NCBI GenBank assembly: GCA_000002445.1
Contig: CP000071.1
Span: 544,001 to 608,000 of the forward strand
Direction of reading: 5' to 3'
Length of the DNA stretch: 64,000 bases
DNA from: Trypanosoma brucei
Lineage: Eukaryota
Positions 1 to 16,023 of the stretch are shown here, one piece after another (within the stretch, counting starts at the first letter, position 1; the number at the start of each line of letters is the position of its first letter). Under the pieces are notes generated by a model. It was not told the DNA's origin. It searched no databases and worked only from the letters and a program-made list of their open reading frames with translations. The translations under genes were made by a program, and so were the position numbers.

Positions 1-1385
1 ATTGCACGTCTGCAGGGCAGGAACGACCAACGTTTTTCGGAGAAACAGCGACATGTTCACAAGAAGACATTTTGACAGCCGCTAAGAGAGATATTGCCGT
101 CACGAAGCTTCTTCCTTCAGCTGTCCAGATGCATATGGATAGGTTACTCGTCGACCCTATAACTGAACCCCTTGTCTTTCCTCCATTTGATGGTTCGGTG
201 TGCTCTGAGTTCAAAGTACCGTCAAGTCATTTCTCAGAGGGCGTACCTGACGCTGATATGGTAATGTATGCTGCAGCGGGTCCAACGCCGGAGGGTGTGG
301 CTGCCTGGGCTACGGGTTGCATAACTCTTGACGATGGGCGTGCTGTGGCTGGCGTAACTAACCTTGGCCCCGGTTCCATTAGCCTGTCGGAGACCAGCAT
401 TCGCACAGCTGCTCATGAGATTGCCCACATCCTTGGGTTCAATTTCCGAGCGATGAACGATGCCGGTATGGTGCAAAGAATTCCCGGTGTTCGTGGAAAG
501 GTTGATGTGACACTCATTTCGTCACCCAGGACACTGCAGAAGGCCCGCGAACACTACAATTGTCCCGATGCCCCTGGAATGGAACTGGAGGACGAAGGTG
601 GTAGTGGCACCGCATTATCACACTGGGAGCGGCGCAATGCGAAGGATGAGATCATGTCTGGTATTTCTTCACCTGGTCGATACACAGCGCTAACGATGGC
701 GGCGTTTGAGGATCTGGGATATTACCGTGGTGCCTGGGGGAGCGAAGAACCTATGGGTTGGGGAAACAACTCTGGTTGTGAGCTACTCAACGAAAGCTGT
801 TTGGTGAACGGTGTGACAGCGCACCCGGATATGTTCTGCAACGAAACCGTGAGCAAGCTGGTTTGTAACTCGGAGCGAGATGGTCTTGGAAGGTGTAATG
901 TAATTAAGCATGAAAATCCACTTCCACCGCAATACCATTACTTTTCTGATCCTTCACGTGGTGCCCCCTCCCATCTCTTGATGGACTACTGCCCGTCCAT
1001 TGACGCGTTCTCCAACACGCCTTGTGCCGACGGCGAAACGAAATTCATGCGTGGAAGTTTGATAGGACCGTCGTCAATGTGTCTGAAGGCCGAGGGACTC
1101 CGTGACAGTCAGGGCGTCATTGGCGATGTTTGTGCGGATGTGCGGTGTGATGGTGGTGAAGTAAGCATTCGTTATCTTGGGGATGATGCATGGCATCCGT
1201 GCCCAGAAGGCAGTCACATCAAACCGACTACAACATTCACGGATGGCGTCATTGTTTGCCCGACTTACAGTGAGGTTTGTATCAAAGCAACAGTGGTTGT
1301 ACGCCCTTCTTCAGCCAGCTACCGTTCTTCAGTGCCGCAATCGCTGCTTCTCACCCTATTCGCTATAGTTTATGCTGCCTGTTAA
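1..1385 (+). CDS. GP63/leishmanolysin (major surface protease, MSP) family zinc metalloprotease. C-terminal 461 codons only. The gene begins upstream of the window.
   Basis: The frame is open from nt 3 to the stop at 1385. It has a HEIAHILGF zinc-binding HEXXH motif, many conserved Cys, and a hydrophobic C-terminus (LLLTLFAIVYAAC) consistent with a GPI-anchor signal. There is no start codon at the true N-terminus because the window edge cuts the gene. Confidence 0.85.
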   Translation, partial: CTSAGQERPTFFGETATCSQEDILTAAKRDIAVTKLLPSAVQMHMDRLLVDPITEPLVFPPFDGSVCSEFKVPSSHFSEGVPDADMVMYAAAGPTPEGVAAWATGCITLDDGRAVAGVTNLGPGSISLSETSIRTAAHEIAHILGFNFRAMNDAGMVQRIPGVRGKVDVTLISSPRTLQKAREHYNCPDAPGMELEDEGGSGTALSHWERRNAKDEIMSGISSPGRYTALTMAAFEDLGYYRGAWGSEEPMGWGNNSGCELLNESCLVNGVTAHPDMFCNETVSKLVCNSERDGLGRCNVIKHENPLPPQYHYFSDPSRGAPSHLLMDYCPSIDAFSNTPCADGETKFMRGSLIGPSSMCLKAEGLRDSQGVIGDVCADVRCDGGEVSIRYLGDDAWHPCPEGSHIKPTTTFTDGVIVCPTYSEVCIKATVVVRPSSASYRSSVPQSLLLTLFAIVYAAC

Positions 1386-2404
1386 ATGGCGTGACTATAG
1401 GTGTGGGGTTAAGCATCCGTTACTGTCCTTGGATGTTGCGTCAGAAATGGTTACTACATGCGATACGCAGGTTTTCCTTTTATACGAGTATTTTCCATTA
1501 CCACTTTGCAAGGTTGTTGTATTCCTTTCTTTTGTCTTTGTACACGTTTTTTTTAAATACTTTGTTTATTATACGCACAGAACCCTATGACTCCAGAGGT
1601 TGTATGGGGAGAATGTGTGTGCGAGCGTTATCGTCTGTTATTTCTTAGTCCAGTTGTCTGCGTTCTCACGGCAGAATCGTGGCAGCAGCGGGCACCTAAA
1701 CGATTTTAGGCCGCCACGTCGCGGTCGGCACTGATTCATCGTTAAATACATTTTTTAAATATAATTTTCGTATCGATAATGTTGATTTCAATTCCACTTT
1801 GCTCTTATCTACCTATATGTTAACAACACACTTCCGTTGTTGCATTTCACCACGGGTTTCGGGCGCTTATTCTCTCTTCCCCTTGTTCCTCCCATATGTC
1901 AAAAGGAAGCGGTTGATGATGTAGCAGAGGTGATTATTTCCAAAGCAAAAGATGCGGTGCATTTAATTTTTGTTCGGGTGGGAGGTTGTGGCGCTGCTGT
2001 GCTTATCCGTTTATACGGTTCCGTGTTGTTGGAGGTGCCTTGTGTATCATACATTTATATCTGCAGCTTCTTCGGTTGATTGAGGGTTGGGCTATGAAGA
2101 AGTGGACGATTTAGCTATTTGGTATGTGTAGGCAAACGTCGATGCCGAGTGCTACTGCGGGCTAACGTGAATATAAGAGAAAATCGTATCAGCATGCGCT
2201 CCACTACAATTGCTGTAACTCATTTTTTGCATCAGCAGCGCACGTGCTTGTGTACCCTTAACTCAACCGGCAACAACTAGTCTTCTTAAACTTGTGCTGG
2301 ACGCTGGCATGCTCTTAGCCATCCCGTAAATTTGTGGTGTTGTTGTTTTGCTTTATTGTTTAGCCGTTTTTACACGAAATTCCTGTTCGGTGCGTCAGTC
2401 GCCA

Positions 2405-2495
2405 TGGTTGTTTTCCTACACATCATGTGTTCGTCGTTGTAGCTTTCTCTTCCATTTTCTGTTTTTGTGTTTTTTTCGACATGCTTTCTGCATGC
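2405..2495 (+). promoter_or_regulatory. Polypyrimidine tract, probably the trans-splicing/polyadenylation signal upstream of the nodulin-like gene. AG dinucleotides follow at about 2499.
   Basis: A long C/T-rich run (tcttccattttctgtttttgtgtttttttcgacatgctttctg) lies 160-250 nt upstream of the ATG at 2659. This is the usual trypanosomatid mRNA-processing signal. Confidence 0.3.
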
Positions 2496-2658
2496 GCACA
2501 GAGAAGTGCACGAGCGGGGAAAGTGAAGCACAACGGTAGACTATTTGCTGAGTGTTGAGATTCCTCATTTGGTGGAAGCGTAGAAATACACGCGGTTATA
2601 CACAATACATTCGAGTGTATATATTTGCACCCCGTTTGTTCGTTTACCGCCGCCGGAG

Positions 2659-4434
2659 ATGAACTGCGCGGCGGACCACGTCGTTGAACGACTGCCTACG
2701 GCGCGGCAACAACCCGCCGGTGAGCCCCACCGATTTGGCCTGTTGGCCGTCGCCGCCTTCAGTTGCATATGCGTTTCGCTTACATATGGCTTCAACCTCA
2801 TATCTGGTGCAATGCAGGAGCGATATGGCCTCACCCAACGGGACTTGTCGACAATCAGTACTGTTGGCATTGCGGTTGGGTATTTTGGTTTGCCGTACAG
2901 TTTTATTTACGATCATTTCGGCCCGAAGCCCATCTACTTCCTGGGGTTGCTCTGCTACCTGCTGGGCACTGTGATGTTCGCGTTAACGTTTCAGGGAGTT
3001 ATTGAGGGTACTGTTTTACGACTTAGCATATACAACGCATCCGTGACTCTTGGTTGCTCAATGTTCGACATGGGTGCTTTGGTGACACTGTTGAGCGTTT
3101 TCCCCTCAAATCGTGGTGCCGTGGTGGCCATGCTGAAGACCTTAAATGGCCTCGGCGCAGCAATTGTAGGGAGCGTTCGGCTGGCTTTCTTCAGTGAGAA
3201 CACTTCTGCTTACTTTTACTTTCTGATGACCCTTGTAATTGTTATTGGGACGCTTGCCACCGCATATGTACGCCTCCCATCGTATCACCTTACAGGTTAC
3301 GAGGAGAATCATTTGAGTGAGGAGGAAAAGGTAAAACGGCTCATGAGGAAGGCCGTATACTTGCGGCAGAAGGCACCCACGTGGCGTTTCGTGCACGGTT
3401 TCGTCATCTTAATAGCACTCATTGTATTCCTCCCCACCCAGGGAGCGCTATTAGCTTACCTGAAGCTTGGTTCCGATTACAAGGTGGGATTCGCCGTCGT
3501 CACCATTATTCTGACGTTGTTGCTCCCCCTAATGGCGATCCCGACAACCAAATTCGATGGCAACAACCAGCGTATTGGCATCGATGATAAATCCCCCACT
3601 GAAGGTGCTGTTGGAAGTAACGATGGCGATTCGAGTGGTAGCAACGTAGTAGAAACAAACGTAGACTACATTGCGCCGCAGTTCCAGGAGTCATTTCTTG
3701 CTGGTTTGCGCACTCTGCGGCTCTGGTGCCTGATGTTTACAATATTCTTCTGTGCCGGTTCACTATTTGTTGTCATGTTCAATGCTCGTTACATCTACAC
3801 AGCTATGGTAGGTGAGGCCCCTGATGAGGCACTTAACACACTTCTTACTGTGCTTGGCGGTGCAGGCAGCGCCACGGGGAGGCTGGGGATGAGTTTTTTC
3901 GAAGTTTGGTCGCAGAAGCGTAAACCGGAACAGCGCGTTCCCATCACTGTTGTGCTTTTCATCCCGACAACCTTCGTCATCATTATGTTGACGATGTTCC
4001 TCACGGTCCCGAAGAGTGTTCTTCCTCTCTCGTATTTTATTGGCGCCCTTGCTAACGGATGCAACTCAGCTACAATCATTCTTGTGTCGCGGACAATATT
4101 TGCCAAGGACCCCGCCAAGCATTACTACTTCTGTTACATAGGTTCATTGTTGTCTGCCATCTTCCTCAACCGCTTGTTGTATGGCGAGTGGTACACGCAT
4201 GAGGCTGAAAAGCGTGGTGAAGTTGTATGCACGGATAAGGTGTGTGTGATGATGCCGATGATGCTGTTACTTGTTCTTTCTCTCTTGGCATTTGTAAGCA
4301 GTTCATATGTTCATGTGCAGTACCGCCGGCTCTGCACCAAAGCTTTGGAAGAGCGGCGCCGCATTCGTGAGGAAGAAGCTGCAGCGCGGAGGCAGCTCTC
4401 CGGTGCCACTGCAACGGCGGAACTTCCCAACTAA
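2659..4434 (+). CDS. Nodulin-like / major-facilitator-type polytopic membrane protein (591 aa)
   Basis: About 12 hydrophobic segments. The N-terminal half (GLPYSFIYDHFGPKPIYFLGLLCYLLG...) resembles the nodulin-like MFS domain annotated in kinetoplastids. There is a charged central loop and a C-terminal charged tail. Confidence 0.5.
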   Translation: MNCAADHVVERLPTARQQPAGEPHRFGLLAVAAFSCICVSLTYGFNLISGAMQERYGLTQRDLSTISTVGIAVGYFGLPYSFIYDHFGPKPIYFLGLLCYLLGTVMFALTFQGVIEGTVLRLSIYNASVTLGCSMFDMGALVTLLSVFPSNRGAVVAMLKTLNGLGAAIVGSVRLAFFSENTSAYFYFLMTLVIVIGTLATAYVRLPSYHLTGYEENHLSEEEKVKRLMRKAVYLRQKAPTWRFVHGFVILIALIVFLPTQGALLAYLKLGSDYKVGFAVVTIILTLLLPLMAIPTTKFDGNNQRIGIDDKSPTEGAVGSNDGDSSGSNVVETNVDYIAPQFQESFLAGLRTLRLWCLMFTIFFCAGSLFVVMFNARYIYTAMVGEAPDEALNTLLTVLGGAGSATGRLGMSFFEVWSQKRKPEQRVPITVVLFIPTTFVIIMLTMFLTVPKSVLPLSYFIGALANGCNSATIILVSRTIFAKDPAKHYYFCYIGSLLSAIFLNRLLYGEWYTHEAEKRGEVVCTDKVCVMMPMMLLLVLSLLAFVSSSYVHVQYRRLCTKALEERRRIREEEAAARRQLSGATATAELPN

Positions 4435-5932
4435 AGGAGTCGCAGTTTACTTACTTAATTTTCTTTTGGTTTGTTTCGAAGGTAATTTTCTTGCGTCTCC
4501 TGCGGCTTCGTGGTGAATTGTTATGAAGTGTGCGTAGATAAATAAATTTATTTTTAAAATTTCAAGTGTATTCCCCTCTGTGATACCATCATAATTGTTA
4601 TTTTTTGGCGTTCATTTACTTGCTTTTATTTTTTCCAGAGTGTGAAATCACAGAAGCAAAAATAAGGTAATCAAGTAAGATCTAAATGCGTTTTAAAGAG
4701 CTCTAATTTCTTGGCTTATTCACTTATTCGTTGATATTTTATTGAATAATCCTACATATTTTTGGCAGATGAATCAATTGCTTAATTATATATGTGTTTA
4801 TTTTGCGTTTTTTTTAAATGATATCTTTTATCGTTCCACTTATTTTTGGGGTGAGTGACTTCAGTGACTGACGTTATAAATGAAGAAAAATAAGAGTAGA
4901 ATTAATAATGTCGCGACGTCCTTCTCTTCTCTTTCATCCCACCCTTTTCGTTTTATTAAAAAAAATGAGATGGTAAAATGTCGCACTAGAGCACATGTCA
5001 GGATTGAAAGGAAAAGAAAAACTGTTAACTGCAACGTCGATATTAAAATTAAAGGAAAGGAAAAAGTACATACTAAATCAATAATTAAGATTGTTAGTGT
5101 TAAATGTTATTATGATAAAAGCGAGGCGGATCGTTATTTCAGCGGTGTTGGGCAACGTTAGGAATGACAGAACAAGAGCAATAAAAAAAGGAAGTAGCAG
5201 TGACTTGTCTGTTAGTGTATTTGCGTTCACTTCTGCACACCTCTGCACTTCATCGTTTCCTCTATTTCATTTCTTTATTAATTTTTTTTTCTTTAGATGA
5301 GGAAACCCCTTCGTTTTTTTCTTCTCACTCTCCATTTGGGAGGGGGAGCGGGCGGGTGAAGCGTTATCACAGTTTTGAAACGCACTAAATGCAGTGGTGA
5401 CATCGCGGTTCTACTTGTTTTACCTATTAGTGTATTTGTTTCTTCGCACACTCCTTAATCTCAATCACTTCAGATTACATATGCGACTTGTACCTTTTTC
5501 TTTTTTCATTGTAGAGGATCGTTTCTTCTTTTCTTTGATTGATTGATTGGTTTGCGTTTGTTTGCTTTAATTATGTTTGAACATTTTTCAAATTCAAGAT
5601 TAAAACGGGAAAAGTTGGACCACATGGCGCCGTAACTCAACCACATTACGTCGAGCAACTGAAGAAAATTGTAGCGCGTGATGAATAAATACAAACGACC
5701 AATAATCGGAAGCGTCAGTAACACCTCACGCATGACGCCACTTTGAATGCAATACTAATTATCTGACTCATATCCCCGTTTCCTCATTTTCCTCCTTTTT
5801 GTTTCTATTCCGTTACACCTCCGCTTCGCTCGTGGCATTCTTCCAGTGAGCGCACTTACGATGGATGGTGGAGGAAGAATATGAATGTGCAACACTTGCG
5901 TTCGTTGGCTTCGGATGCAACAACAATGGCTT

Positions 5933-6029
5933 TACCTCGATGATGTGTATGAGAACAAGCATATGTCCGAGCTGACCACAATTGTGGCACAATGAGAGCA
6001 TTACTCGAGTCCTTGAAAGCTGAGTGGTA
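5933..6029 (+). ncRNA. Candidate box C/D snoRNA, copy 1 of a repeated gene, with two guide elements against the 5' end of SSU rRNA
   Basis: Terminal stem tacc...ggta. C-box-like aTGATGT at 5940-5946. Antisense element aacaagcatatg at 5954-5965 followed by a degenerate D' CCGA at 5967-5970. C'-like aatgaga at 5991-5997. Antisense element agtccttgaaa at 6008-6018 immediately 5' of D box CTGA at 6020-6023. Confidence 0.45.
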
Positions 6030-6310
6030 TCGTACCTTTCTTTCTTTGCTTTAACTTATGATGCAAAGCAAATAAACAGCGGGGGAAACCTCGTCTCAAA
6101 ATGTGATTTTGCGTGAACGAGCGTTTTCAAGCGTCATCCACTGACTCATATCCCCGTTTCCTCATTTTCCTCCTTTTTGTTTCTATTCCGTTACACCTCC
6201 GCTTCGCTCGTGGCATTCTTCCAGTGAGTGCACTTACGATGAACGGTGGAGGAAGAATATAAATGTGCAACACTTGCGTTCATTGGCTTCGGATGCAACA
6301 ACAATGGCTT

Positions 6311-6407
6311 TACCTCGATGATGTGTATGAGAACAAGCATATGTCCGAGCTGACCACAATTGTGGTACAATGAGAGCATTACTCGAGTCCTTGAAAGCTG
6401 AGTGGTA
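6311..6407 (+). ncRNA. Candidate box C/D snoRNA, copy 2
   Basis: Identical box and guide architecture to copy 1, shifted by 378 nt. There is one SNP (c to t) outside the guides. Confidence 0.45.
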
Positions 6408-6688
6408 TCGTACCTTTCTTTCTTTGCTTTAACTTATGATGCAAAGCAAATAAACAGCGGGGGAAACCTCGTCTCAAAATGTGATTTTGCGTGAACGAGC
6501 GTTTTCAAGCGTCATCCACTGACTCATATCCCCGTTTCCTCATTTTCCTCCTTTTTGTTTCTATTCCGTTACACCTCCGCTTCGCTCGTGGCATTCTTCC
6601 AGTGAGCGCACTTACGATGGATGGTGGAGGAAGAATATGAATGTGCAACACTTGCATTCATTGGCTTCGGATGCAACAACAATGGCTT

Positions 6689-6785
6689 TACCTCGATGAT
6701 GTGTATGAGAACAAGCATATGTCCGAGCTGACCACAATTGTGGCACAATGAGAGCATTACTCGAGTCCTTGAAAGCTGAGTGGTA
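6689..6785 (+). ncRNA. Candidate box C/D snoRNA, copy 3
   Basis: Identical box and guide architecture, shifted by 756 nt from copy 1. Confidence 0.45.
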
Positions 6786-7022
6786 TCGTACCTTTCTTTC
6801 TTTGCTTTAACTTATGATGCAAAGCAAATAAACAGCGGGGGAAACCTCGTCTCAAAATGTGATTTTGCGTGAACGACCGTTTTCAAGCGTCATCCACTGA
6901 CTCATATCCCCGTTTCCTCATTTTCCTCCTTTTTGTTTCTATTCCGTTACACCTCCGCTTCGCTCGTGGCATTCTTCCAGTGAGCGCACTTACGATGGAT
7001 GGTGGAGGAAGAATATAAATGT

Positions 7023-7528
7023 GCACCCTGGCGATGCCGGTCACCTCAACGTGGTGCCAGGGTCCAGTACCCCGTATCATCGGGGGAAGCCAAGAGCCAG
7101 CAGCGTTCCTTTCATGGGGAACACTGCTGTGCTCCGGATACGGCATCATACAGCACAGGGATCAGCAGCGTCTTGTTGGGACACCGTTTTTCATTTGTCG
7201 GTCCCTGGGCACGTGCCAGCGTGCCATCAGCAGTATCATCCGCACTAAGATGCTGCTGTCCGGTGATGTGGAACTCCAAAAAAGGATTGCTAATTGACAT
7301 CTTTTGGAGTTCCGGGGTGGGAGGCTTCTCGCCCCATCTGCTGTATTCCGTTCATCTGCGGAAATACAACAAGAGTTATAGAGGGTGTGTTAGGATGAAT
7401 AAAAAAAGGGAGGCTCTGCCACAGTTGCCAGACCGATAGCATCTCAGGGCTCTACGGTGATGGCTGATGGCCGCGCCAGTGGGGGGAAACTCTCACGAAG
7501 GCACGAAGAAAATTAAATTAAATTAATT
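7023..7528 (+). mobile_element. RIME-like (ingi-family) non-LTR retroposon, about 0.5 kb, with a Pr77 5' signature and an A-rich 3' end
   Basis: The 5' end reads gcaccctggcgatgccggtcacctcaacgtggtgccagggtccagtaccccgtatcatcgggggaagccaagagccagcagcgttcc. This matches my recollection of the conserved 5' 77-80 nt of T. brucei ingi/RIME, T. cruzi L1Tc/NARTc and SIDER. The element has no long ORF and ends in gaagaaaattaaattaaattaatta. Its length of about 505 bp fits RIME. Confidence 0.75.
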
Positions 7529-10500
7529 ATTCTTACCAGAATACCCTCTATTTTTCGCGTTGTTTCCCTTTTTTCATCGCAGTCGCTAGCCGGCTGAAAT
7601 GGTTTCATGCTTCCATTATAAAGCGGGCCATGGTGGCCCCCTCTTTCCCGTCAGGGGGGATCGTTTGTTGCGGTATGCCGAGTATAACGTGCGAGCCCGC
7701 CTCGGTGTGTTTTGGGGGTTTGACCGTCTTTCCGATTGTTCTGCCTCCTCATTCCGTTCCTTTCACCTCACAGCCGTAATGATGTCTTTCCCTCACTCCA
7801 AGGCGCTGTTGTGGCGTCAGGTTGTTCCGCGCGCCTTTTTTTCCGCCTACACTATCGTTTTACCTGGTCCAACCAAGTAAAATCGTGAATTGGAACGCCG
7901 GCTTTAGCCCCTTCTTCGGTTGGTTCCACTATGTGTTTATATCCGTCGCGAAGTCCCGCTTTTTTAATATCGCAGGACCTGTGGCTTACAGCGGGGGAAA
8001 GGGACGATGGATCAGTGTACGGTGATGCGCTCCTCCCTCTTTTCGGCCGTTTTCTCGCAATATCCATGACGGCTGCGCGCCAACCTCCTATCACTAGAAT
8101 TTCTGCTCCGTGGCTAAGTGTCAGTTTCCGCACCCCTTGCCAGTGGTTTTTCCTTTTTTGCTCCCTCTCTCCGGGATGCCGGCGACACAGTCCCTGACGA
8201 GCTGTTGAGCGCTGCTGCTCCGCCAGCCCGTTTCCGACCTGCTTCCCGAAACCATGTCACAGTCTTCGGTGACTTTTTACACTTTTTACTCTATCCCTGT
8301 TTGCCTTCAGCTCTTCGGGGCGCCGTTCAATCAAAGAGGTCCTCCCCACCAATATTGCCGCGGCAGTTGCACCGTCATCTGAAAAGACAAACCAGCCGGT
8401 TCTCGAAAGAAGGCATGTCGGATTGCTGATTTTTTCTCTTCACAGGCCCACTGACAACTTATTCACTTCCCCTTCCCCCGCCCCTTCCGCCAAGAGTAAA
8501 GTTCATCGACGCGTGGATGCGCTACCCGTTGTTTTTTTCTCTTTGTCATTTTGCTTTTGCGGACAGTGGCCCACTGAGTTTGAGTGGAGCTGCGGAGGCG
8601 CTCTGTAATGTGTTGGGGAAGTTGAAATCGGTGTATGCCTTCGTCCAAGCGAAAACTAGGTATGCAGCCGAGAAAGTGAGGGAGTTTGAGGATATGGTGG
8701 AGTTGGTGAGGTCGAAGATTGCGAGGGGCAGGAAAAACGGGGAAAGACGATAATAACCGCACCTCGTGCACGAGCATTGAAAAGTTTTCGGATTGTGGAC
8801 GGAGCGTGGGATAGGTGGGCCGGAGGGCGAGGGAACGGAGAGTGCTGAGGTGTGTATTGGATACGCAGCCGTGAAGGATGCTGAGCAAAGGGAGGTTTTG
8901 AGGCGGCATGAGGCTCGACGAAATGGTGGCTGCGCTCGGGAATCTGTAAAAAAATACTGAAAATTATTTATGGTTGATGTACTCGAGAACACCGCGGGAA
9001 GAACTTACCACCAAGCTGCTCCGCCGGAACAGAGCGAAACGAAAGGGCAGTATAGTGGGAATCCATCAAAACCATGGGGGACGTAGCTGCTTCTCCTTCG
9101 GACAAATCATACGCAATGAGTTTGGAGGGTGCAGGGAGCTGGCCTGTGCATGGGTGGGGGTTGGAGACGCAACGACGGTTTTGGAGGAATTCGGGCTTTC
9201 TGCTTGATGCTGTTGGAAAGAATTGCGGCGGGAACAAAATTGGAGAAAATGATCCCATCTGCAAAGCATCATTTTTTGTGGAAATGCTGACCTGCTCGGA
9301 ATTGTGTAATTGGAAAAAGGCGGCCCCCAAAGAGATGGCAACCCACTCGGCACATAATACGAAAAAGGCACGTGTATATACATATATATGATGGTGATGG
9401 TAAGGAAAGAAGCAATGAAGGAACCCACACGGTACGAAGAAGCGAAAAAAAAATCCACAACAACCATTCAAAACTCTAATTAATACAAAAAAAGAGAGGG
9501 ATGTGTAGTGAAAACTTCTCACAAAATCCCATATTTCGCTTCGTTAAAGAAAAGCTGTATGTGGGGAAAGACGTTAGTGATAGAGAAAACCCCGTTGCTG
9601 GTACCGTGGGTGATATGGGTGAGTGGAAAAGGGGAGAGGAACACGAAAAGAGCGTGGAAGACTGGGTGGCTTGGGTGCCGCACTCACTCCCACCTCCTAC
9701 GAAACCCCACGGAATGATGACCAAACGATGGGTGCAGAAGCCAAAGGTCAGAAGAATCGCACAAAATGAAATACTGTGACGCTGTCGTGTGCATCGTGGA
9801 TGTCTCGTCCCTGAATTCGCCTAAGCCATCCTTTTGGATTTTGCCATACTAGTCTGGTTTTCAGTTGCACAGCAGAGGGGCCACTTCAACAGCTCAGCCC
9901 ACTAACAGGGAAATGCTGGGGACTGGCATGCGATTTCCTGGGAAAGAGGGGGGGGTCTTGAATACGTGGTGGGGTGCATCAACACAACTTGTTGGGAATA
10001 ACACTGATTGCCCGAGCGGCAGCGAGCACCACGACCGAGGACCCATGTGGGTATACAATGGGGAACCTGCGCCATCGCTGATGTCAAAAGCACGGCGTCG
10101 TAACCACGGATATACAGAAGTTGTGGGCTGTACGCTTTGATGCGTGTATACGCATAACAGCGAAGAAGCGTACAAGAGCGTAAGTTTACCAATGAAAGTC
10201 AGCAACACGTGCATCACTACCATCGCTACTTTGCGTTTAGTCGCACCACCTCACCGTTTTAGGGCTTTCTTCAAGCAGCAGCTACCAAAATTACTTCCCA
10301 CTTTACTGGCTCCTAACCTGCAAAGATCCATTGGCAGTGTATCCACGCACTGCACTTTTAGTTTATCGGTTGTAACCTTTCCATTAGCACCAGTTTTCAC
10401 TCCGAACCTCCTTCAGTGTCTGCCGCGCCGGCTTGCATACAGAAGTAAGAGGATTAAGATCCTTTCCTTTTACTTCTGACAACCCTGAGTTGCCTCTGGT

Positions 10501-11011
10501 CGATAGGCCCACACATATTGGGAAAAGCCCTACCAAATTTGGAAAAAGAGATCTAAAGAGTATGATCCTTTAGTAGAGTTTTAACCAAAACGTCGTTGAT
10601 TGTGAAGTAACATTCGGAGGATGAACGTGAATGTCGCTCAAATAAAGCAGATCTTCGCTTTTAGCAGCCCCAAGCGATGCTTGTTATTTCATTGGCGGCA
10701 AGCATGTCTAGGCAACTGTTGCTTTTCTTTGTACTGCCGCCAAGCTTATCGTCGGAAAATCTTTATGGGAATATATTGTCCGTAAAGCGTGCAGCCCCAT
10801 GCTGAGCCGTTCAGTCGGTAATACACATTACGCTGCATTCTCTTGCCTTCCACGGTTGTTCAAATACAACCGAAAAGGCGCGTCATTCAGGGATGGCAGC
10901 TCCGGGTCATGAGGATGGGATGCACCTCCACTGGATACAAACACACATACCGTATAAAATATGCTGTGAGAGCCGGCTCTACCGTTTTTGCCGACCGATC
11001 GAGGCGCTCAT

Positions 11012-11395
11012 CTATACATCTCGCGTGTTGAAAAAAGCGCCCAACTTTCTCGGCTCATACGGTATTTCGTACTGCTTTTTCTTGAGGTTGCTCAGTCTTT
11101 CGAGGAATACACAATTTTCTTGGTAGGCGTCACCAAGCTCAATGAACCGCTGCCTTTCTGCAGCACCCAACGCCCCCAGACTCAACTCCTTCAGAAATAG
11201 GGAGTTCATCTCGTTGCAAAACTTTTGTCGTTCCCCCTCCACTTTTTCCTTCATCCTCCCGAGTACATCTTCGACCTCCCACATACGCCACCGACGGTCA
11301 GGTGTAAAGGTGCGTCTTCTAACCTCGCTGTCCCTTCCCAAAAGGCAATAAGTCAGCATAACACTTTGACTAACGACCCGGCGAGGAACAAACAA
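11012..11395 (-). CDS. Small hypothetical protein (127 aa or shorter), charged and helical. It may be the last gene of the minus-strand transcription unit.
   Basis: This ORF looks more protein-like than its neighbours in the strand-switch region (…ERQKFCNEMNSLFLKELSLGALGAAERQRFIELGDAYQENCVFLERLSNLKKKQYEIPYEPRKLGAFFNTRDV). I recognise no family. Confidence 0.3.
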   Translation of the reverse strand: MFVPRRVVSQSVMLTYCLLGRDSEVRRRTFTPDRRWRMWEVEDVLGRMKEKVEGERQKFCNEMNSLFLKELSLGALGAAERQRFIELGDAYQENCVFLERLSNLKKKQYEIPYEPRKLGAFFNTRDV

Positions 11396-14244
11396 TTTTA
11401 GCTACAAAGAGCGCCTGCGACAACCCCTAAAATTTTAAAATTTACTTCAGACTCATGGAGTAAAACACCAATTTCGACTGCAGCTAAAGAGGCTGCAAGA
11501 CGTCATTACACTGCTTCAACAGTAAACAAAAGATAAAGCGAAAGACTTCCACCATAACAACGACGTAAAAAACAACTGAACTAACATAACCTTCTCCCAT
11601 AATCCCCCCTCCGCTTAACGGTGGCTTCCGCCCCTGCAAATCTTCCCGCCGAAAGTTGCTTCGGAGGAATGGCCCCGCATTACTACTGCAAAACTTCCCG
11701 GTAATACATTTCACCCTGGGGGCGGTGGGTAATCTATCTTTCCGGTGCCGTCCTGCCAATGCGTTAAACCAACATCATTAAATATACACCAACTTGTAGT
11801 TAAACACGTTGTCCACAACCGCACTCACAACAACTCAGATCACGTCAAACCCCTCTCGCATACCCTCTTCAACTTTCTCGAATGAACCACATTCCCCCCC
11901 TCCCACTTCTGAAAGCACTGGTGACGACCCTCGCGAATATAATATGCACTATTCACTCCGACGCGCTGTTGAAGAGGAGCCCAGTGGCAGAACTCACATT
12001 ACTGTTAATTGTTGCATTTGAAGCGTGTTCACCCTTATCACGCATCCCAAATGCCCCAGACGAGGAACGAGAGACCCTTTACAAGGCACAAGGACAAACC
12101 CTACAGCATGAGAAAACAACACCTTTTTTTGTCCGTTAGCGTCGCAACCCCTCAGTGGTTGGAGATCTCGAGACGCTTGAAACGCATAGATACTCCAATA
12201 CCTAATGCGGGCTTAACAATGAGATATTCTGCGAGATTCACCACTAAAGTCACAGTCTTTACTGCATCCCTACACGCTGCAGAGCCCAACTTTCTCTCCT
12301 CCTCCCGCGCCAACTTCCATTCCCAAGGACGCTCCCGGTATGTGAAATGAATATATAAATCCTCTTCCCCTGGAGCTCATCATCCATTCCCCAAGAATAT
12401 GCCCGCTTGTGAGCATTCATGTACTTACATACCCTAAAACCACCCCACAATCGAACCACTTGCTATTAAGTTACCGAAGTAGAAACGATAATATTAACGG
12501 TGCTATTACTCTTAACGATTCGGAGCGATTGAAAGCGCCCTGACTTTAATAGCGTTCTGTTAACTTTATAACCGCCCTTCTACCGCGTGACAACGCACTA
12601 AAGGAACGCAGTCATTTTGTTGCGGACTATTGTGGTGCTGGAAACGGCAAGGGGGCGATGACGAGGGAACTACTTACGATAAGATTATTACGTCGCTGAC
12701 GCTCCCATTACCCCCACTTCTACTCTCCCCTTCCCCAAACAATACACGCAACACACAAAAGCCTCCAGAATAAACCACTTTATCTCCAAACTTCGATTAG
12801 GATTTGCACTTCCCCAACTCAACATGGTTCACCTTTATTTTGCCTTCCCAACTCCCTCTTGAACGTCACTGCGCATTCATTACGGGGGCATCGGTTAAGA
12901 GGTAAAAAAAAACGCTGGCAAAACGGAACCTTCAAATCCACTCAGGTAACACACTCATTACTTGCGTGTTGTTATCACTCTCTCGTCCACAGCGTTCTTC
13001 TAACAAGAGCACAGGACATTGACATGCGGTAACGTGGAACATTCAAAAACTGCAGATTGGTTGAGGTAAAAAATAAAACAGGAAATGAAACAAAAACAAA
13101 TTCCAACAGAAAAGAACAGGACCATCGGAAGGAGACTCCTTTCACTTGGGGCTTTCAATATGATACGAATGAGCGCAATTATTTAATTCACTTGCGGAAG
13201 CTTTCCTTTTTATCGCAGCCATTTGAGTGGAGCCTCTTTCAAACCCCGACCCAAGACGTGGCGGGGGGGGACCGTTTGTTTCCCTATTGTGGGCCTGTAG
13301 AAGCTGAATGAAAACAAGTGAGTTCCCCCCTCCGTTCCATCGTTAAATAAACACCGAGCAGAGGCTGGCCATATTTAGTTGTGAAGCGGTTCCGTTATAA
13401 TTCCTCGCGGCACAGCACAAATTAGCAGTTTAACTTTCACCTCTTTTTTTTCTTTCATGATCTTTTCACACCGGAACGAGATCATGTGCACTCGAAACTA
13501 CTACACTCCGAAAAAAAGGGAGGCCCATCCAAGCGCGAACAAAGGTGGGAGGAAGAAACTAAGAGGGGGAAAAGAAAAAGTCTATAGGTATGAGAGAGTA
13601 AATGGAGAAAATAATGAAAAATAGGGGAGAAGGGGACAAACAAACACACACACACAAAAAACAAACAAACAAACAGAAACGGTAGGGAATGTTGCAAAGG
13701 CGTATCGGAAGGCAAATCGCCAACGGAGACCCCTCCTGTTAGGAAATGAGAGGTGAAAAGGAGCACTAATCCACACATGCACAAATACATCCTCGCATAG
13801 GAATGATAGTGAACCGAAGGGAAGGTAAGAAGGAACAAACGCACATATACACACATACACACCAAACCCCGCCACGCCCGATATCCCCGCAACGGTTGTG
13901 GCCAGCCCTCGCAAAACCCTCCTCGTGTCTAAAAAAAAGAAAAACTCCACCAAACACGGGACGGGCAAGAGGAACTTCACCATGAAGCGTATACATAAAA
14001 ATATCACCGTGCCATGTTGCACGTATCCAAAAAGGGGTGTGATAATACAAAAATGAAGAAGTGAAGGGGTGGGGATTGGAAGGACGCCTCGGCACAACAC
14101 CGCAACAGAAGGGGAAAACTATGAAAAAATATTGAAAGGGGGAGACAAAAAGAGACGCGACAAAGGGGGAGGGTGTGGAAAGAGAGTCAGAAACGAAATA
14201 GCAGCCGATGGAATGACTGTTGGTTAACCGACGGAGCCACCACC

Positions 14245-16023
14245 TCACTGCACAGCAGGTGCGAAGTAACGCACATGATCGGGGAGAACAATTTCGACTG
14301 AAACGTCCGCGCCGCCTTCGCTCTTCCCTCTAGCTTTCTTTTGTCTCATTGCTTTAGCTTTCTGCTCGCGTATCATCTCTAACATCTTAGCTCGCTCCTG
14401 CTCACGTTTCGCACGCTGCGCCTGCCGCTCTTCCTCTCGCTGGGGTGAATGCCGTAAAGGAGAAAGTTGTCTGCAGGCAGAGCCCGTGCTTTTTATCCGT
14501 ATGAATCCTTGAGCCGCTAAATGGTTAACCAGTGAAGGCTCGCGTGCGAAGGGCGAGTGCCTCCTACTCGGCCGTGCTGCACATGCCGCCTGCTTGGGCC
14601 GCTTGCCCTTCGCGATCCCTACCGACACCACTGACAAATCTGCAGGACTAACCGCCTCTACATCAGACCGGGTGTTCTGCCGATTCTGCTGCTTCTCTTC
14701 ACGTGGCGCCACCGCTACTTTCCGGCCGGCCCTCAGCCCCTTTTGTGGTGTGGCGCCTTTTCTTACGGAAGTGTCAACTTTAGATGCCACAGCACATGGC
14801 TGTAAGCCATCTTGTGACCCACCTTGGCTCTCTACAGGTCCCTCCGCGATTAAAATATCGTCGGCCGGGCGGAACTTTTGCAGGTAAGACTCAATGAATT
14901 TAACATCGTTGTTACGTGCGTGGATCCACTGGGACAGCTGGCTCTCCCCACTACTATCAGAGGAACCTGCTGCGTGCCCTATCGGTCCTCGTTTGGCCTG
15001 CCGTGGTTGCTGCTTCCGCTGCTTCTGCGGCAATTTTTGCGGCGTTCCCTCCTGTTGTGCCTCCAGTTCCGGTTGTCGCTGTGGGTGGAGATGTTGGGGC
15101 TTCTTATGCACCATTACGGAAGCATGCAGTGCCCGCTTGGGGCCAAGCGCCCGCTGTTGCTGTTGCTGCTGTTTTTTTAGTACTACCTTACGGTGTCGGG
15201 GTGAGGATGCCTTTTCATCCGGCGTTACCGCAGCCGTTGTTTGGCGTACTTGGATTGCCCGTTCTGTCATCTCCATTACCTTTTCCAGCCCATACCGCTT
15301 GTTGGGGTCTGTCTGCAGCATCCCCATAATAATTGCCTGAATATCCTCCGGGACGGCAGCCGGGAGCGGGGCGATATCACCCGCTGTTATCTGCCGCACG
15401 AGACTGGCGAAACTGTCGGATGAAAAGGGACGACGCAGACACGCCATCTCGTAAAAGACACAACCGAGTGACCAAACATCCGACGGATAACTGTACGGCA
15501 TACCTAAAAGTAACTCCGGTGACAACCAAATGGGTGACCCAACGAAAGTGGTCGTGAGAGATGCGGATCCCGACATGGCCTTAGAGGATCCAAAGTCGCC
15601 CAAGTATAGCTCCGATGCATCGGCGTTCACAAATACATTCCCGGGTTTGACGTCCCTGTGCATGATACTCAGCCCGTGGCAACACTTCAGTGCCGATATG
15701 AGCTGCTGGAAACCACGGAGAAGCGCAAGATGGGGAAGGGCCTTCTTCCGCCGCGCAAGGCGCTCCAGATGAGACTCCAGATCACCGCCCTCCGCATACT
15801 GCAGCACAACGTAAAGCCCGCCGTCGTGAACAAAAGACTCCAAGTATGGAATAATGTTAGGGTGCCGCGCCCGCATGGACACATTTACCTCCTGCATCCC
15901 CTGTGTTCCATCAGCCAAACGTTTAATAACGACGCGCTTCGTCTCATTTTGTTTGTCAACCGCGAGATATGCACCACTCGTGCCCCCTAGCTGCCGTATA
16001 ACGGTGTAGTGATCCATCCCCAT
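14245..16023 (-). CDS. Serine/threonine protein kinase, NEK-like (592 aa). N-terminal kinase domain plus a basic/Gln-rich C-terminal tail.
   Basis: Kinase subdomains are present: glycine loop LGGTSGAYLAV, VIK, HRDVKPGNVF, DFG, and SPE...DVWSLGCVFYE. A poly-Q and Arg/Lys-rich tail follows. Confidence 0.8.
   Translation of the reverse strand: MGMDHYTVIRQLGGTSGAYLAVDKQNETKRVVIKRLADGTQGMQEVNVSMRARHPNIIPYLESFVHDGGLYVVLQYAEGGDLESHLERLARRKKALPHLALLRGFQQLISALKCCHGLSIMHRDVKPGNVFVNADASELYLGDFGSSKAMSGSASLTTTFVGSPIWLSPELLLGMPYSYPSDVWSLGCVFYEMACLRRPFSSDSFASLVRQITAGDIAPLPAAVPEDIQAIIMGMLQTDPNKRYGLEKVMEMTERAIQVRQTTAAVTPDEKASSPRHRKVVLKKQQQQQQRALGPKRALHASVMVHKKPQHLHPQRQPELEAQQEGTPQKLPQKQRKQQPRQAKRGPIGHAAGSSDSSGESQLSQWIHARNNDVKFIESYLQKFRPADDILIAEGPVESQGGSQDGLQPCAVASKVDTSVRKGATPQKGLRAGRKVAVAPREEKQQNRQNTRSDVEAVSPADLSVVSVGIAKGKRPKQAACAARPSRRHSPFAREPSLVNHLAAQGFIRIKSTGSACRQLSPLRHSPQREEERQAQRAKREQERAKMLEMIREQKAKAMRQKKARGKSEGGADVSVEIVLPDHVRYFAPAVQ

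What the first reader, a model, noticed from the sequence alone, without database searches (positions are those of the whole stretch)
7023..7528. RIME/ingi-family retroposon with Pr77 signature inserted exactly at the end of the snoRNA-like array
The fourth repeat copy is cut off after 'gaagaatataaatgtgca'. The sequence then continues as the canonical retroposon 5' end (ccctggcgatgccgg.cacctcaacgtggtgccagggtccagtaccccgtatcatcgggggaagccaagagccagcagc). This runs about 505 bp to an A-rich tail, which is the RIME size. Beyond the element there is no continuation of the array, so the insertion or an associated deletion truncated the cluster. Pr77 is a known internal promoter. Here it points in the same direction as the snoRNA candidates. 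A clean 12-bp target-site duplication is not evident. Only a loose match exists between gaagaatataaat before the element and gaagaaaattaaat at its end.
Basis: partly seen in the sequence, partly recalled or inferred. Interest (0 to 1): 0.5.

Follow-up and report, generated by a model that had tools for sequence, protein, structure and literature searches.

The report
RIME retroposon capping a snoRNA array
This is an ordinary, already known kind of Trypanosoma brucei mobile element (a 504-bp RIME, the short form of the ingi retroposon) that sits directly against the last small-nucleolar-RNA gene of a tandem array, is old enough to be shared by three T. brucei subspecies, and shows no sign of having a function there.

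Summary
The 378-bp snoRNA array (5763-7025; Rfam TB8Cs2H1 x4) stops at 7025. A complete RIME follows at 7026-7529, on the + strand.

- **Identity.** Positions 7026-7273 match the 5' end of a 5.27-kb ingi at 97.6%. Positions 7280-7514 match its 3' end at 89%. An independent RIME elsewhere matches end to end at 91%. No internal ingi sequence occurs anywhere in the window.
- **5' signature.** The first 77 nt are 76% identical to T. cruzi L1Tc Pr77.
- **Target site.** There is no 12-bp target-site duplication (best 6/12; a control RIME gives 12/12). The 5' flank fits the published Tbingi/TbRIME endonuclease signature 6/10 in the right register (P about 0.02).
- **Most likely history.** A normal insertion into the array, then loss of the duplication and the distal units by deletion or RIME-RIME recombination.
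- **Age.** The same junctions occur in T. b. gambiense and T. b. equiperdum. Only the array copy number differs (5.3 vs 3.3).
- **Promoter idea.** It is weak. The literature read here reports no promoter activity for T. brucei RIME/ingi 5' ends. The orthologous copies have mutated the CGTG core.

This is a known element family and of low interest.

The parts
5763..7025 (+). Tandem snoRNA array TB8Cs2: three full 378-bp units plus a 129-bp partial unit. Each unit holds the H/ACA snoRNA TB8Cs2H1 and, by inspection, two C/D-box snoRNAs.
   Evidence: TRF; Rfam RF01549 hits at 5817-5878, 6195-6256, 6573-6634 and 6951-7012; the C/D boxes were read from the sequence
6951..7012 (+). Last, intact copy of H/ACA snoRNA TB8Cs2H1. 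It ends 13 nt before the retroposon.
   Evidence: Rfam 81.5 bits, full model 1-65; the same 13-nt spacing is seen in L001 and L005
6992..7025 (+). 5' flank in the register of the Tbingi/TbRIME (ingi4) endonuclease target signature. The last 12 nt (7014-7025, TATAAATGTGCA) are the expected but unduplicated target-site duplication.
   Evidence: 6/10 signature positions in register 0 against 3/10 at +/-1; empirical P(>=6) = 0.02 over all window positions; control copies score 5-8/10. Signature taken from PMC3820030
7026..7104 (+). 79-nt signature of ingi-clade retroposons (the first 77 nt are Pr77), with CGTG at +25 to +28.
   Evidence: 78/79 identical to the L008 ingi and 77/79 to the L007 RIME; 60 identical positions over a 79-column alignment with the L1Tc Pr77 oligo from PMC1874656, local score 41 against 15 for the best match elsewhere in the window
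7026..7273 (+). RIME-A: homologous to the first 248 nt of ingi.
   Evidence: blastn 97.6% over 248 nt to ingi 1-248, E = 4e-119
7034..7297 (+). Remnant of the ingi ORF start: MPVTSTWCQGP...MLLSGDVE|LQKRIAN*. The RIME internal-deletion junction cuts the 2A-type motif (ingi reads SGDVEENPGP).
   Evidence: Translation; ingi N-terminal protein P0116 and RIME ORF P0115
7274..7283 (+). RIME-specific junction: CTCC plus an A-run (6 A here, 16 A in the L007 RIME). The run overlaps the start of the homology to the ingi 3' end.
   Evidence: Alignment A1
7280..7514 (+). RIME-B: homologous to the last ~260 nt of ingi (ingi 5010-5268), ending in the conserved ...CACGAAGGCACGAAGAAAATT.
   Evidence: blastn 89.3%, E = 2e-92; 3' ends compared
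7515..7529 (+). A/T-rich tail AAATTAAATTAATTA, in place of the (G/C)C + A7-10 seen in the reference copies. It is identical in all three subspecies.
7530..14244 (.). ORF-poor stretch unrelated to the array, between the element and the convergently oriented kinase gene (14245-16023, minus strand). This is a convergent strand-switch region.
   Evidence: ORF lists; no ingi remnants; no tRNAs; the kinase is annotated in L005, and confirmed by homologues

Best explanation
A RIME is the ~0.5-kb non-autonomous deletion derivative of the T. brucei LINE ingi. RIMEs are mobilised in trans by ingi endonuclease/reverse transcriptase through target-primed reverse transcription. One inserted, in sense orientation, into a unit of the TB8Cs2 snoRNA array, 13 nt downstream of an H/ACA snoRNA. 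The sequence on its 3' side was later lost: the 12-bp duplication, the two C/D snoRNAs of that unit and any further units. The loss came either from homologous recombination with a second RIME or ingi further downstream, or from a deletion with one breakpoint in the unstable A-tail. This happened before T. b. brucei, gambiense and equiperdum diverged. Since then the copy has been a passive, slowly decaying fossil at the end of a polycistronic unit, while unequal crossing-over continues to change the number of whole array units upstream of it. Shown: the identity, anatomy and boundaries, the absence of a duplication, the conservation of both junctions, and the variation in copy number. Inferred: the order of events, the deletion mechanism, and the lack of function.
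For: Identity: ingi positions 1-248 and 5010-5268 are the only ingi sequence in the window (E = 4e-119 and 2e-92). An independent RIME with a perfect 12-bp duplication aligns end to end at 91%. The ingi reference is 5270 bp with an endonuclease domain, which matches the published description of 5.25 kb flanked by the two RIME halves (PMC3447711). The remnant ORF breaks inside the ingi 2A-type motif exactly as in another RIME, P0115. Genuine 5' insertion site: the ingi4 signature scores 6/10 only in the correct register, P about 0.02, against 5-8/10 for controls. Truncation: the array has a non-integer 3.34 units, and its 129-bp partial unit abuts the element. Gambiense has 5.34 units, so the partial unit is fixed and only whole units vary. 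There is no array remnant downstream and no duplication. Age: both junctions and the tail are base-for-base the same in L001 and L005. Neutral decay: the orthologues carry 7 changes within the 79-nt signature, including the CGTG core and the P1 3' strand. Recombination between ingi/RIME copies is a documented source of rearrangements (PMC2854126).
Against: No empty (pre-insertion) allele or outgroup locus could be obtained, so the claim that the array once extended further rests on the non-integer copy number and the missing duplication. The signature match (6/10) is modest, and it drops to 5/10 in the orthologues. The two halves give no positive sign of a chimeric origin: RIME-B is more variable than RIME-A among all copies. 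A target deletion made during the insertion itself (second-strand break upstream of the first nick) would also give an element without a duplication. The in-register 5' signature argues against that only weakly.
Confidence: 0.8

Rival explanations
1. The truncation happened during the insertion itself. In target-primed reverse transcription the first nick was made at an A/T-rich site in the present 3' flank, and the second-strand break fell far upstream inside the array. That would delete the distal array and the intervening DNA and leave no duplication, like the insertion-associated deletions described for mammalian L1 (from general knowledge).
For: No duplication. Both element ends are precise. 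The 12 nt after the tail (ATTAATTATTCT, 7522-7533) share 9 of 12 positions with the genuine duplication of the L007 RIME (TTTAATTATTTA) and are equally A/T-rich (sequences shown; the count is by eye).
Against: In this model the 5' flank would be an arbitrary break and should not carry the endonuclease signature in register, yet it scores 6/10 at offset 0 and 3/10 at +/-1 (P about 0.02). A/T-rich 12-mers resemble each other easily.
Confidence: 0.12
2. The element is functionally co-opted. Its Pr77 acts as an internal promoter driving transcription into the strand-switch region, or its 5' end acts as an HDV-like self-cleaving ribozyme that cuts the polycistronic snoRNA precursor at 7025/7026 and so defines the 3' end of the cluster transcript.
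For: The element is in the same orientation as the snoRNAs and only 13 nt from the last H/ACA. The TREU927 copy keeps CGTG at +25 to +28 and a perfect 7-bp P1 (CCCUGGC/GCCAGGG). L1Tc Pr77 is a promoter and a ribozyme in T. cruzi (PMC1874656, PMC3185411). PMC3185411 states that ingi/RIME Pr77 RNAs self-cleave in vitro, but cites only a manuscript in preparation. The position is conserved in three subspecies.
Against: PMC1874656, citing Garcia-Salcedo 2003, reports no CAT expression or transcription from the first 55, 250 or 500 bp of T. brucei RIME/ingi. The gambiense and equiperdum orthologues have 7 changes in the 79-nt signature: CGTG becomes CG-AG, there is a P1 mismatch, and CCACC becomes TTACC. 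That density is higher than in the rest of RIME-A, so there is no purifying selection at this locus. The nested fold of the 79-mer is no better than shuffles (z = -0.8), and there is no Rfam ribozyme hit. Positional conservation among subspecies that differ by about 2% is expected for any neutral insertion.
Confidence: 0.04
3. The array's right end is its natural boundary and the RIME merely landed next to it. Nothing was truncated on this side, and the partial unit reflects a truncation or a phase difference at the left end.
For: Which end carries the partial unit depends on the phase chosen for the repeat. No outgroup data are available.
Against: The left boundary coincides with the 3' end (D box CTGA) of a single-copy C/D-type snoRNA that occupies the place of the unit's last C/D snoRNA, which looks like an undisturbed boundary. 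If the insertion had been simple, a 12-bp duplication should flank the element, as in L007, and it does not. So a rearrangement touched the element's 3' side in any case.
Confidence: 0.04

Closest known systems
TbRIME (ribosomal inserted mobile element; Hasan et al. 1984), the non-autonomous partner of Tbingi in the ingi4 subclade
   Same: It has the same two-part structure (ingi 5' 248 nt joined to the ingi 3' ~250 nt by CTCC + A-run), the same ~0.5-kb size, the 79-nt 5' signature, the truncated ingi ORF start and the conserved 3' terminus. It is 91% identical over its full length to an independent RIME (L007).
   Different: It lacks the 12-bp target-site duplication and has a degenerate A/T-rich tail instead of (G/C)C + poly(A). 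Both differences are attributes of this copy's history and do not define the family.
Tbingi (5.25-kb autonomous LINE; Kimmel et al. 1987)
   Same: The ends are homologous: 97.6% at the 5' end and 89% at the 3' end, compared with the L008 ingi.
   Different: The 4.76-kb internal region that encodes endonuclease, reverse transcriptase and RNase H is entirely absent (tblastn and blastn).
T. cruzi L1Tc/NARTc Pr77 (internal Pol II promoter and HDV-like ribozyme L1TcRz)
   Same: The first 77 nt are about 76% identical (60 identical positions in a 79-column alignment; PMC1874656 gives 76.6% for ingi/RIME). CGTG is at the same distance from +1, and the P1-forming CCCTGGC...GCCAGGG is present.
   Different: Promoter activity was not detected for T. 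brucei RIME/ingi 5' ends (PMC1874656). Ribozyme activity of ingi/RIME is reported only as unpublished work. The rest of the element is unrelated at the nucleotide level.

Membership tests
TbRIME | The 5' ~250 bp equal the 5' end of ingi, including the 79-nt ingi-clade signature | tested here: met
   7026-7273 against ingi 1-248: 97.6%, E = 4e-119; signature 78/79
TbRIME | The 3' ~250 bp equal the 3' end of ingi | tested here: met
   7280-7540 against ingi 5010-5268: 89.3%, E = 2e-92
TbRIME | The ingi internal coding region is absent and the total length is about 0.5 kb | tested here: met
   No tblastn or blastn match to ingi 249-5009 anywhere in the window; the element is 504 bp
TbRIME | A-rich 3' tail | tested here: inconclusive
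   The tail is AAATTAAATTAATTA (A/T-rich, 15 nt) rather than the A7-10 of the reference copies
TbRIME | 12-bp target-site duplication (a hallmark of an undisturbed insertion; PMC3820030) | tested here: not met
   Best 12-mer match is 6/12; the control L007 gives 12/12. The L008 ingi also lacks one, so the absence marks later rearrangement and does not exclude membership
TbRIME | Preceded by the ingi4 endonuclease signature AxxxxxxxTxxxGTxGGxTxxx^xTxTxxTxxxxx | tested here: met
   6/10 in register, P about 0.02; controls 5-8/10. This is a weak but specific match
Pr77 internal promoter (as defined for L1Tc) | 77-nt 5' sequence with the CGTG downstream core element at +25 to +28 | tested here: met
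   Present in the window copy; destroyed in the gambiense and equiperdum orthologues
Pr77 internal promoter (as defined for L1Tc) | Drives transcription starting at +1 | not testable with these tools
   The literature read here is negative for T. brucei RIME/ingi (PMC1874656 citing Garcia-Salcedo 2003)
HDV-like ribozyme (L1TcRz type) | Nested double-pseudoknot fold (P1, P1.1, P2, P3, P4) with self-cleavage just upstream of +1 | tested here: inconclusive
   A 7-bp P1 and a 5-bp hairpin at the P4 position can be drawn by eye. The MFE fold is no better than shuffles (z = -0.8), there is no Rfam hit, and the pseudoknots were not modelled. Activity cannot be tested here
TB8Cs2 snoRNA cluster (context) | Contains the H/ACA snoRNA TB8Cs2H1 | tested here: met
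   Four hits of 78-82 bits against a gathering score of 40

The most novel reading that the evidence does not exclude
The RIME 5' end, fixed 13 nt downstream of the last H/ACA snoRNA and in the same orientation, acts as a co-transcriptional HDV-like ribozyme or as a transcription boundary. It would define the 3' end of the polycistronic snoRNA precursor where the transcription unit runs into a convergent strand-switch region. That would make it a domesticated retroposon end serving snoRNA processing or termination.
Probability: 0.03. Interest if true: 0.55.

Novelty: already known. Interest (0 to 1): 0.15.

Why it matters
It matters little beyond annotation. It documents one fixed RIME copy that marks, and probably caused, the distal truncation of the TB8Cs2 snoRNA cluster on T. 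brucei chromosome 8, and it shows that the cluster's copy number varies between subspecies by whole units (3.3 vs 5.3). It is a tidy example of how ingi/RIME elements remodel non-coding gene arrays, and of a retroposon without a target-site duplication that points to a secondary rearrangement. The element family, its mechanism and its tendency to cause rearrangements are all well described.

Tried and rejected
- **Other copies in the window.** I looked for further copies of the element or ingi remnants and found none.
- **Target-site duplication.** I looked by exact-word and by 12-mer mismatch scans and found none.
- **Outgroup or empty-site comparison.** Exact look-up of the TREU927 flanking protein found no record. 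The Logan contigs and the T. equiperdum OVI contig end before or inside the array. The T. congolense contig ends inside the flanking gene. The T. vivax kinase locus has a different gene order and no TB8Cs2H1.
- **Ribozyme or RNA family at the 5' end.** Rfam found nothing at E <= 1, and the MFE fold is not better than shuffles.
- **Chimeric origin.** Per-half identities are uninformative, because RIME-B is more variable than RIME-A in all copies.
- **The 146-aa ORF at 6999-7439.** It starts inside the snoRNA and runs out of frame with the ingi ORF, so I rejected it as spurious.
- **tRNAs.** There are none in the window.

Full report
**Where the window comes from.** The protein encoded at 2659-4434 is 100% identical to a nodulin-like/PAD-family protein of Trypanosoma brucei brucei TREU927. 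That protein lies on a 2.48-Mb contig, which is the size of chromosome 8. Rfam identifies four copies of the trypanosomatid H/ACA snoRNA TB8Cs2H1 (the name refers to chromosome 8, cluster 2) at 5817-5878, 6195-6256, 6573-6634 and 6951-7012. Genes upstream are on the + strand. From 14245 onward all large ORFs are on the - strand, starting with a protein kinase. The snoRNA cluster and the element therefore lie at the distal end of a polycistronic unit that faces a convergent strand-switch region.

**Checking the observation.** Tandem Repeats Finder gives one array at 5763-7025, with period 378, 3.3 copies and 98% matches. The fourth unit stops after ...gaagaatataaatgtgca at 7025. It occurs once in the window, with no match in 100 shuffles. 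A sensitive BLAST of the repeat unit against the rest of the window finds nothing better than E = 0.07, so the array does not resume downstream. Exact repeats shared by the two flanks are at most 6 nt long.

**What the element is.** No trypanosome reference library was available, so I obtained independent copies through the element's own coding remnant. From the ATG at 7034 the element encodes MPVTSTWCQGP...MLLSGDVELQKRIAN*. A protein search with this peptide returned four small T. brucei-specific ORFs, and I fetched their loci.

- One locus (L008, T. b. equiperdum) holds a 5270-bp element with an endonuclease domain just after the N-terminal ORF. This is a full-length ingi.
- Window 7026-7273 matches positions 1-248 of that ingi at 97.6% (E = 4e-119). 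Window 7280-7540 matches positions 5010-5268 at 89.3% (E = 2e-92).
- Nothing else in the 64-kb window matches the ingi, at either the nucleotide or the protein level.
- A second locus (L007, T. b. gambiense chromosome record FN554964) holds a complete 0.5-kb RIME that aligns with the window element end to end at 91%.

[quoted passage not shown] The first 77 nt share 60 identical positions (about 76%) with the T. cruzi L1Tc Pr77 oligonucleotide printed in PMC1874656. That paper gives 76.6% for ingi/RIME.

**Anatomy (alignment A1).**

| Part | Coordinates | Notes |
|---|---|---|
| RIME-A | 7026-7273 | matches the ingi 5' end |
| Junction | 7274-7283 | CTCC plus an A-run: 6 A here, 16 A in L007 |
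| RIME-B | to 7514 | ends in the conserved ...CACGAAGGCACGAAGAAAATT |
| Tail | 7515-7529 | AAATTAAATTAATTA |

The reference copies have (G/C)C plus 7-10 A where this copy has its A/T-rich tail. The ingi protein reads ...SGDVEENPGP..., a 2A-type motif by general knowledge of D(V/I)ExNPGP. The RIME internal deletion cuts this motif after SGDVE, in this copy as in the RIME ORF P0115.

**Target site.** Ingi-clade elements make a 12-bp target-site duplication. Tbingi and TbRIME are preceded by the signature AxxxxxxxTxxxGTxGGxTxxx^xTxTxxTxxxxx (PMC3820030).

- The control RIME in L007 has a perfect 12/12 duplication, TTTAATTATTTA.
- The window copy has none. The best match to the expected TATAAATGTGCA is 6/12, inside A/T-rich sequence.
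- The 5' flank matches the endonuclease signature at 6 of 10 specified positions in the correct register and at only 3 of 10 one base either side. Only 2.0-2.6% of all window positions reach 6. The four other copies score 5-8.

I read this as modest but specific evidence that 7025/7026 is a genuine endonuclease-made 5' junction. The element would then have inserted into an array unit, and the disturbance is on its 3' side.

**Comparison across subspecies.** The orthologous loci of T. b. gambiense DAL972 (L001) and T. b. equiperdum (L005) were fetched through the flanking protein.

- Both carry the element at the same junction. The 5' flank, the tail and the 3' flank are base-for-base the same.
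- In all three assemblies the last H/ACA ends 13 nt before the element.
- Array length is 3.34 units in TREU927 and equiperdum and 5.34 units in gambiense, giving 4, 4 and 6 H1 copies.

The 129-bp partial unit is therefore fixed next to the element, and only whole units vary. That is what unequal crossing-over upstream of an old, fixed breakpoint would produce. Copy numbers in assemblies of tandem repeats should be treated with some caution.

**Mechanism.** A non-integer array, an in-register 5' target signature, precise element ends, no duplication and unrelated DNA downstream together point to one history. A standard target-primed insertion into the array was followed by loss of the duplication and the distal array. 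The loss came either through homologous recombination with another RIME or ingi downstream, or through a deletion with a breakpoint in the tail. [quoted passage not shown] A deletion generated during insertion is the main rival. It predicts no in-register signature at the 5' flank, so I rate it lower. I could not obtain an empty site or a usable outgroup locus, so the order of events is inferred.

Three points count against a role at this locus.

- For T. brucei, PMC1874656 reports that neither the first 55 bp, nor the 250-bp RIME-A, nor the first 500 bp of ingi drove reporter expression.
- PMC4748587 identifies CGTG at +25 to +28 as the essential core element. The window copy has it, but the gambiense and equiperdum orthologues read CG-AG there.
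- Those orthologues carry 7 changes within the 79-nt signature, including a mismatch in the putative ribozyme P1 helix.

That pattern indicates neutral decay rather than constraint. Ribozyme activity of ingi/RIME 5' ends is asserted only as unpublished work (PMC3185411). Here the nested fold is unremarkable (z = -0.8), and no Rfam family matches.

**Verdict.** The element is a member of a family described in 1984, in a reference genome, and it is fixed and apparently inert. Novelty: already known. Interest is low, at 0.15. The residual interest lies in the snoRNA-array truncation and in the untested idea that a ribozyme-bearing retroposon end sits exactly where a snoRNA precursor must be cut.

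Noticed in passing
window 7026-7529 compared with L001 15126-15630 and L005 14369-14870: The element differs by 4.4-6.2% between TREU927 and the gambiense/equiperdum orthologues, against 1.2-2.8% in most neighbouring non-coding 500-bp bins. In the RIME-A half the TREU927 copy is closer to non-orthologous copies (98.0% to the L007 RIME, 97.6% to the L008 ingi) than to its own orthologues (95.2-95.6%). This hints at ectopic gene conversion in one lineage or accelerated decay in the other.
   Followed up: partly
window 5763-7025; L001 13107-15125; L005 13107-14368: The copy number of the snoRNA array differs between subspecies by whole units: 3.34 in TREU927 and equiperdum, 5.34 in gambiense, giving 4, 4 and 6 copies of TB8Cs2H1.
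   Followed up: yes
window ~5669-5766 (+): A single-copy C/D-box-like snoRNA (C box TGATGA, D box CTGA) sits immediately 5' of the array, in the position that the unit's last C/D snoRNA occupies inside the array. It is probably the TB8Cs2C0 named in PMC9283944. It is not detected by Rfam, and neither are the two C/D-type snoRNAs inside each unit.
   Followed up: no
window 7530-14244: A 6.7-kb stretch has no consistent gene calls (the gambiense and equiperdum annotations call different small ORFs) and lies between two converging transcription units. It has no tRNAs and no ingi or DIRE remnants. Convergent units in T. brucei are reported siRNA sources (PMC3447711).
   Followed up: partly
L008 6317-6548 (-) and 6993-12262 (+): The full-length ingi used as reference also lacks a flanking 12-bp duplication (best 8/12, and not adjacent). 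It has an inverted RIME-B fragment about 440 bp upstream. This looks like another rearranged retroposon site.
   Followed up: no
window 1501-2000 and 9030-9529: These are local peaks of divergence between subspecies (about 8% and about 4.8%) against a background of 0.4-2.8%. The first lies at the edge of the tandemly repeated GP63-like (Peptidase_M8) genes, whose copy number also differs between assemblies.
   Followed up: no
window 6999-7439 (+): A 146-aa ATG ORF starts inside the last snoRNA unit and reads through the RIME in a frame other than the ingi frame. It is a mechanical ORF, not a gene.
   Followed up: yes
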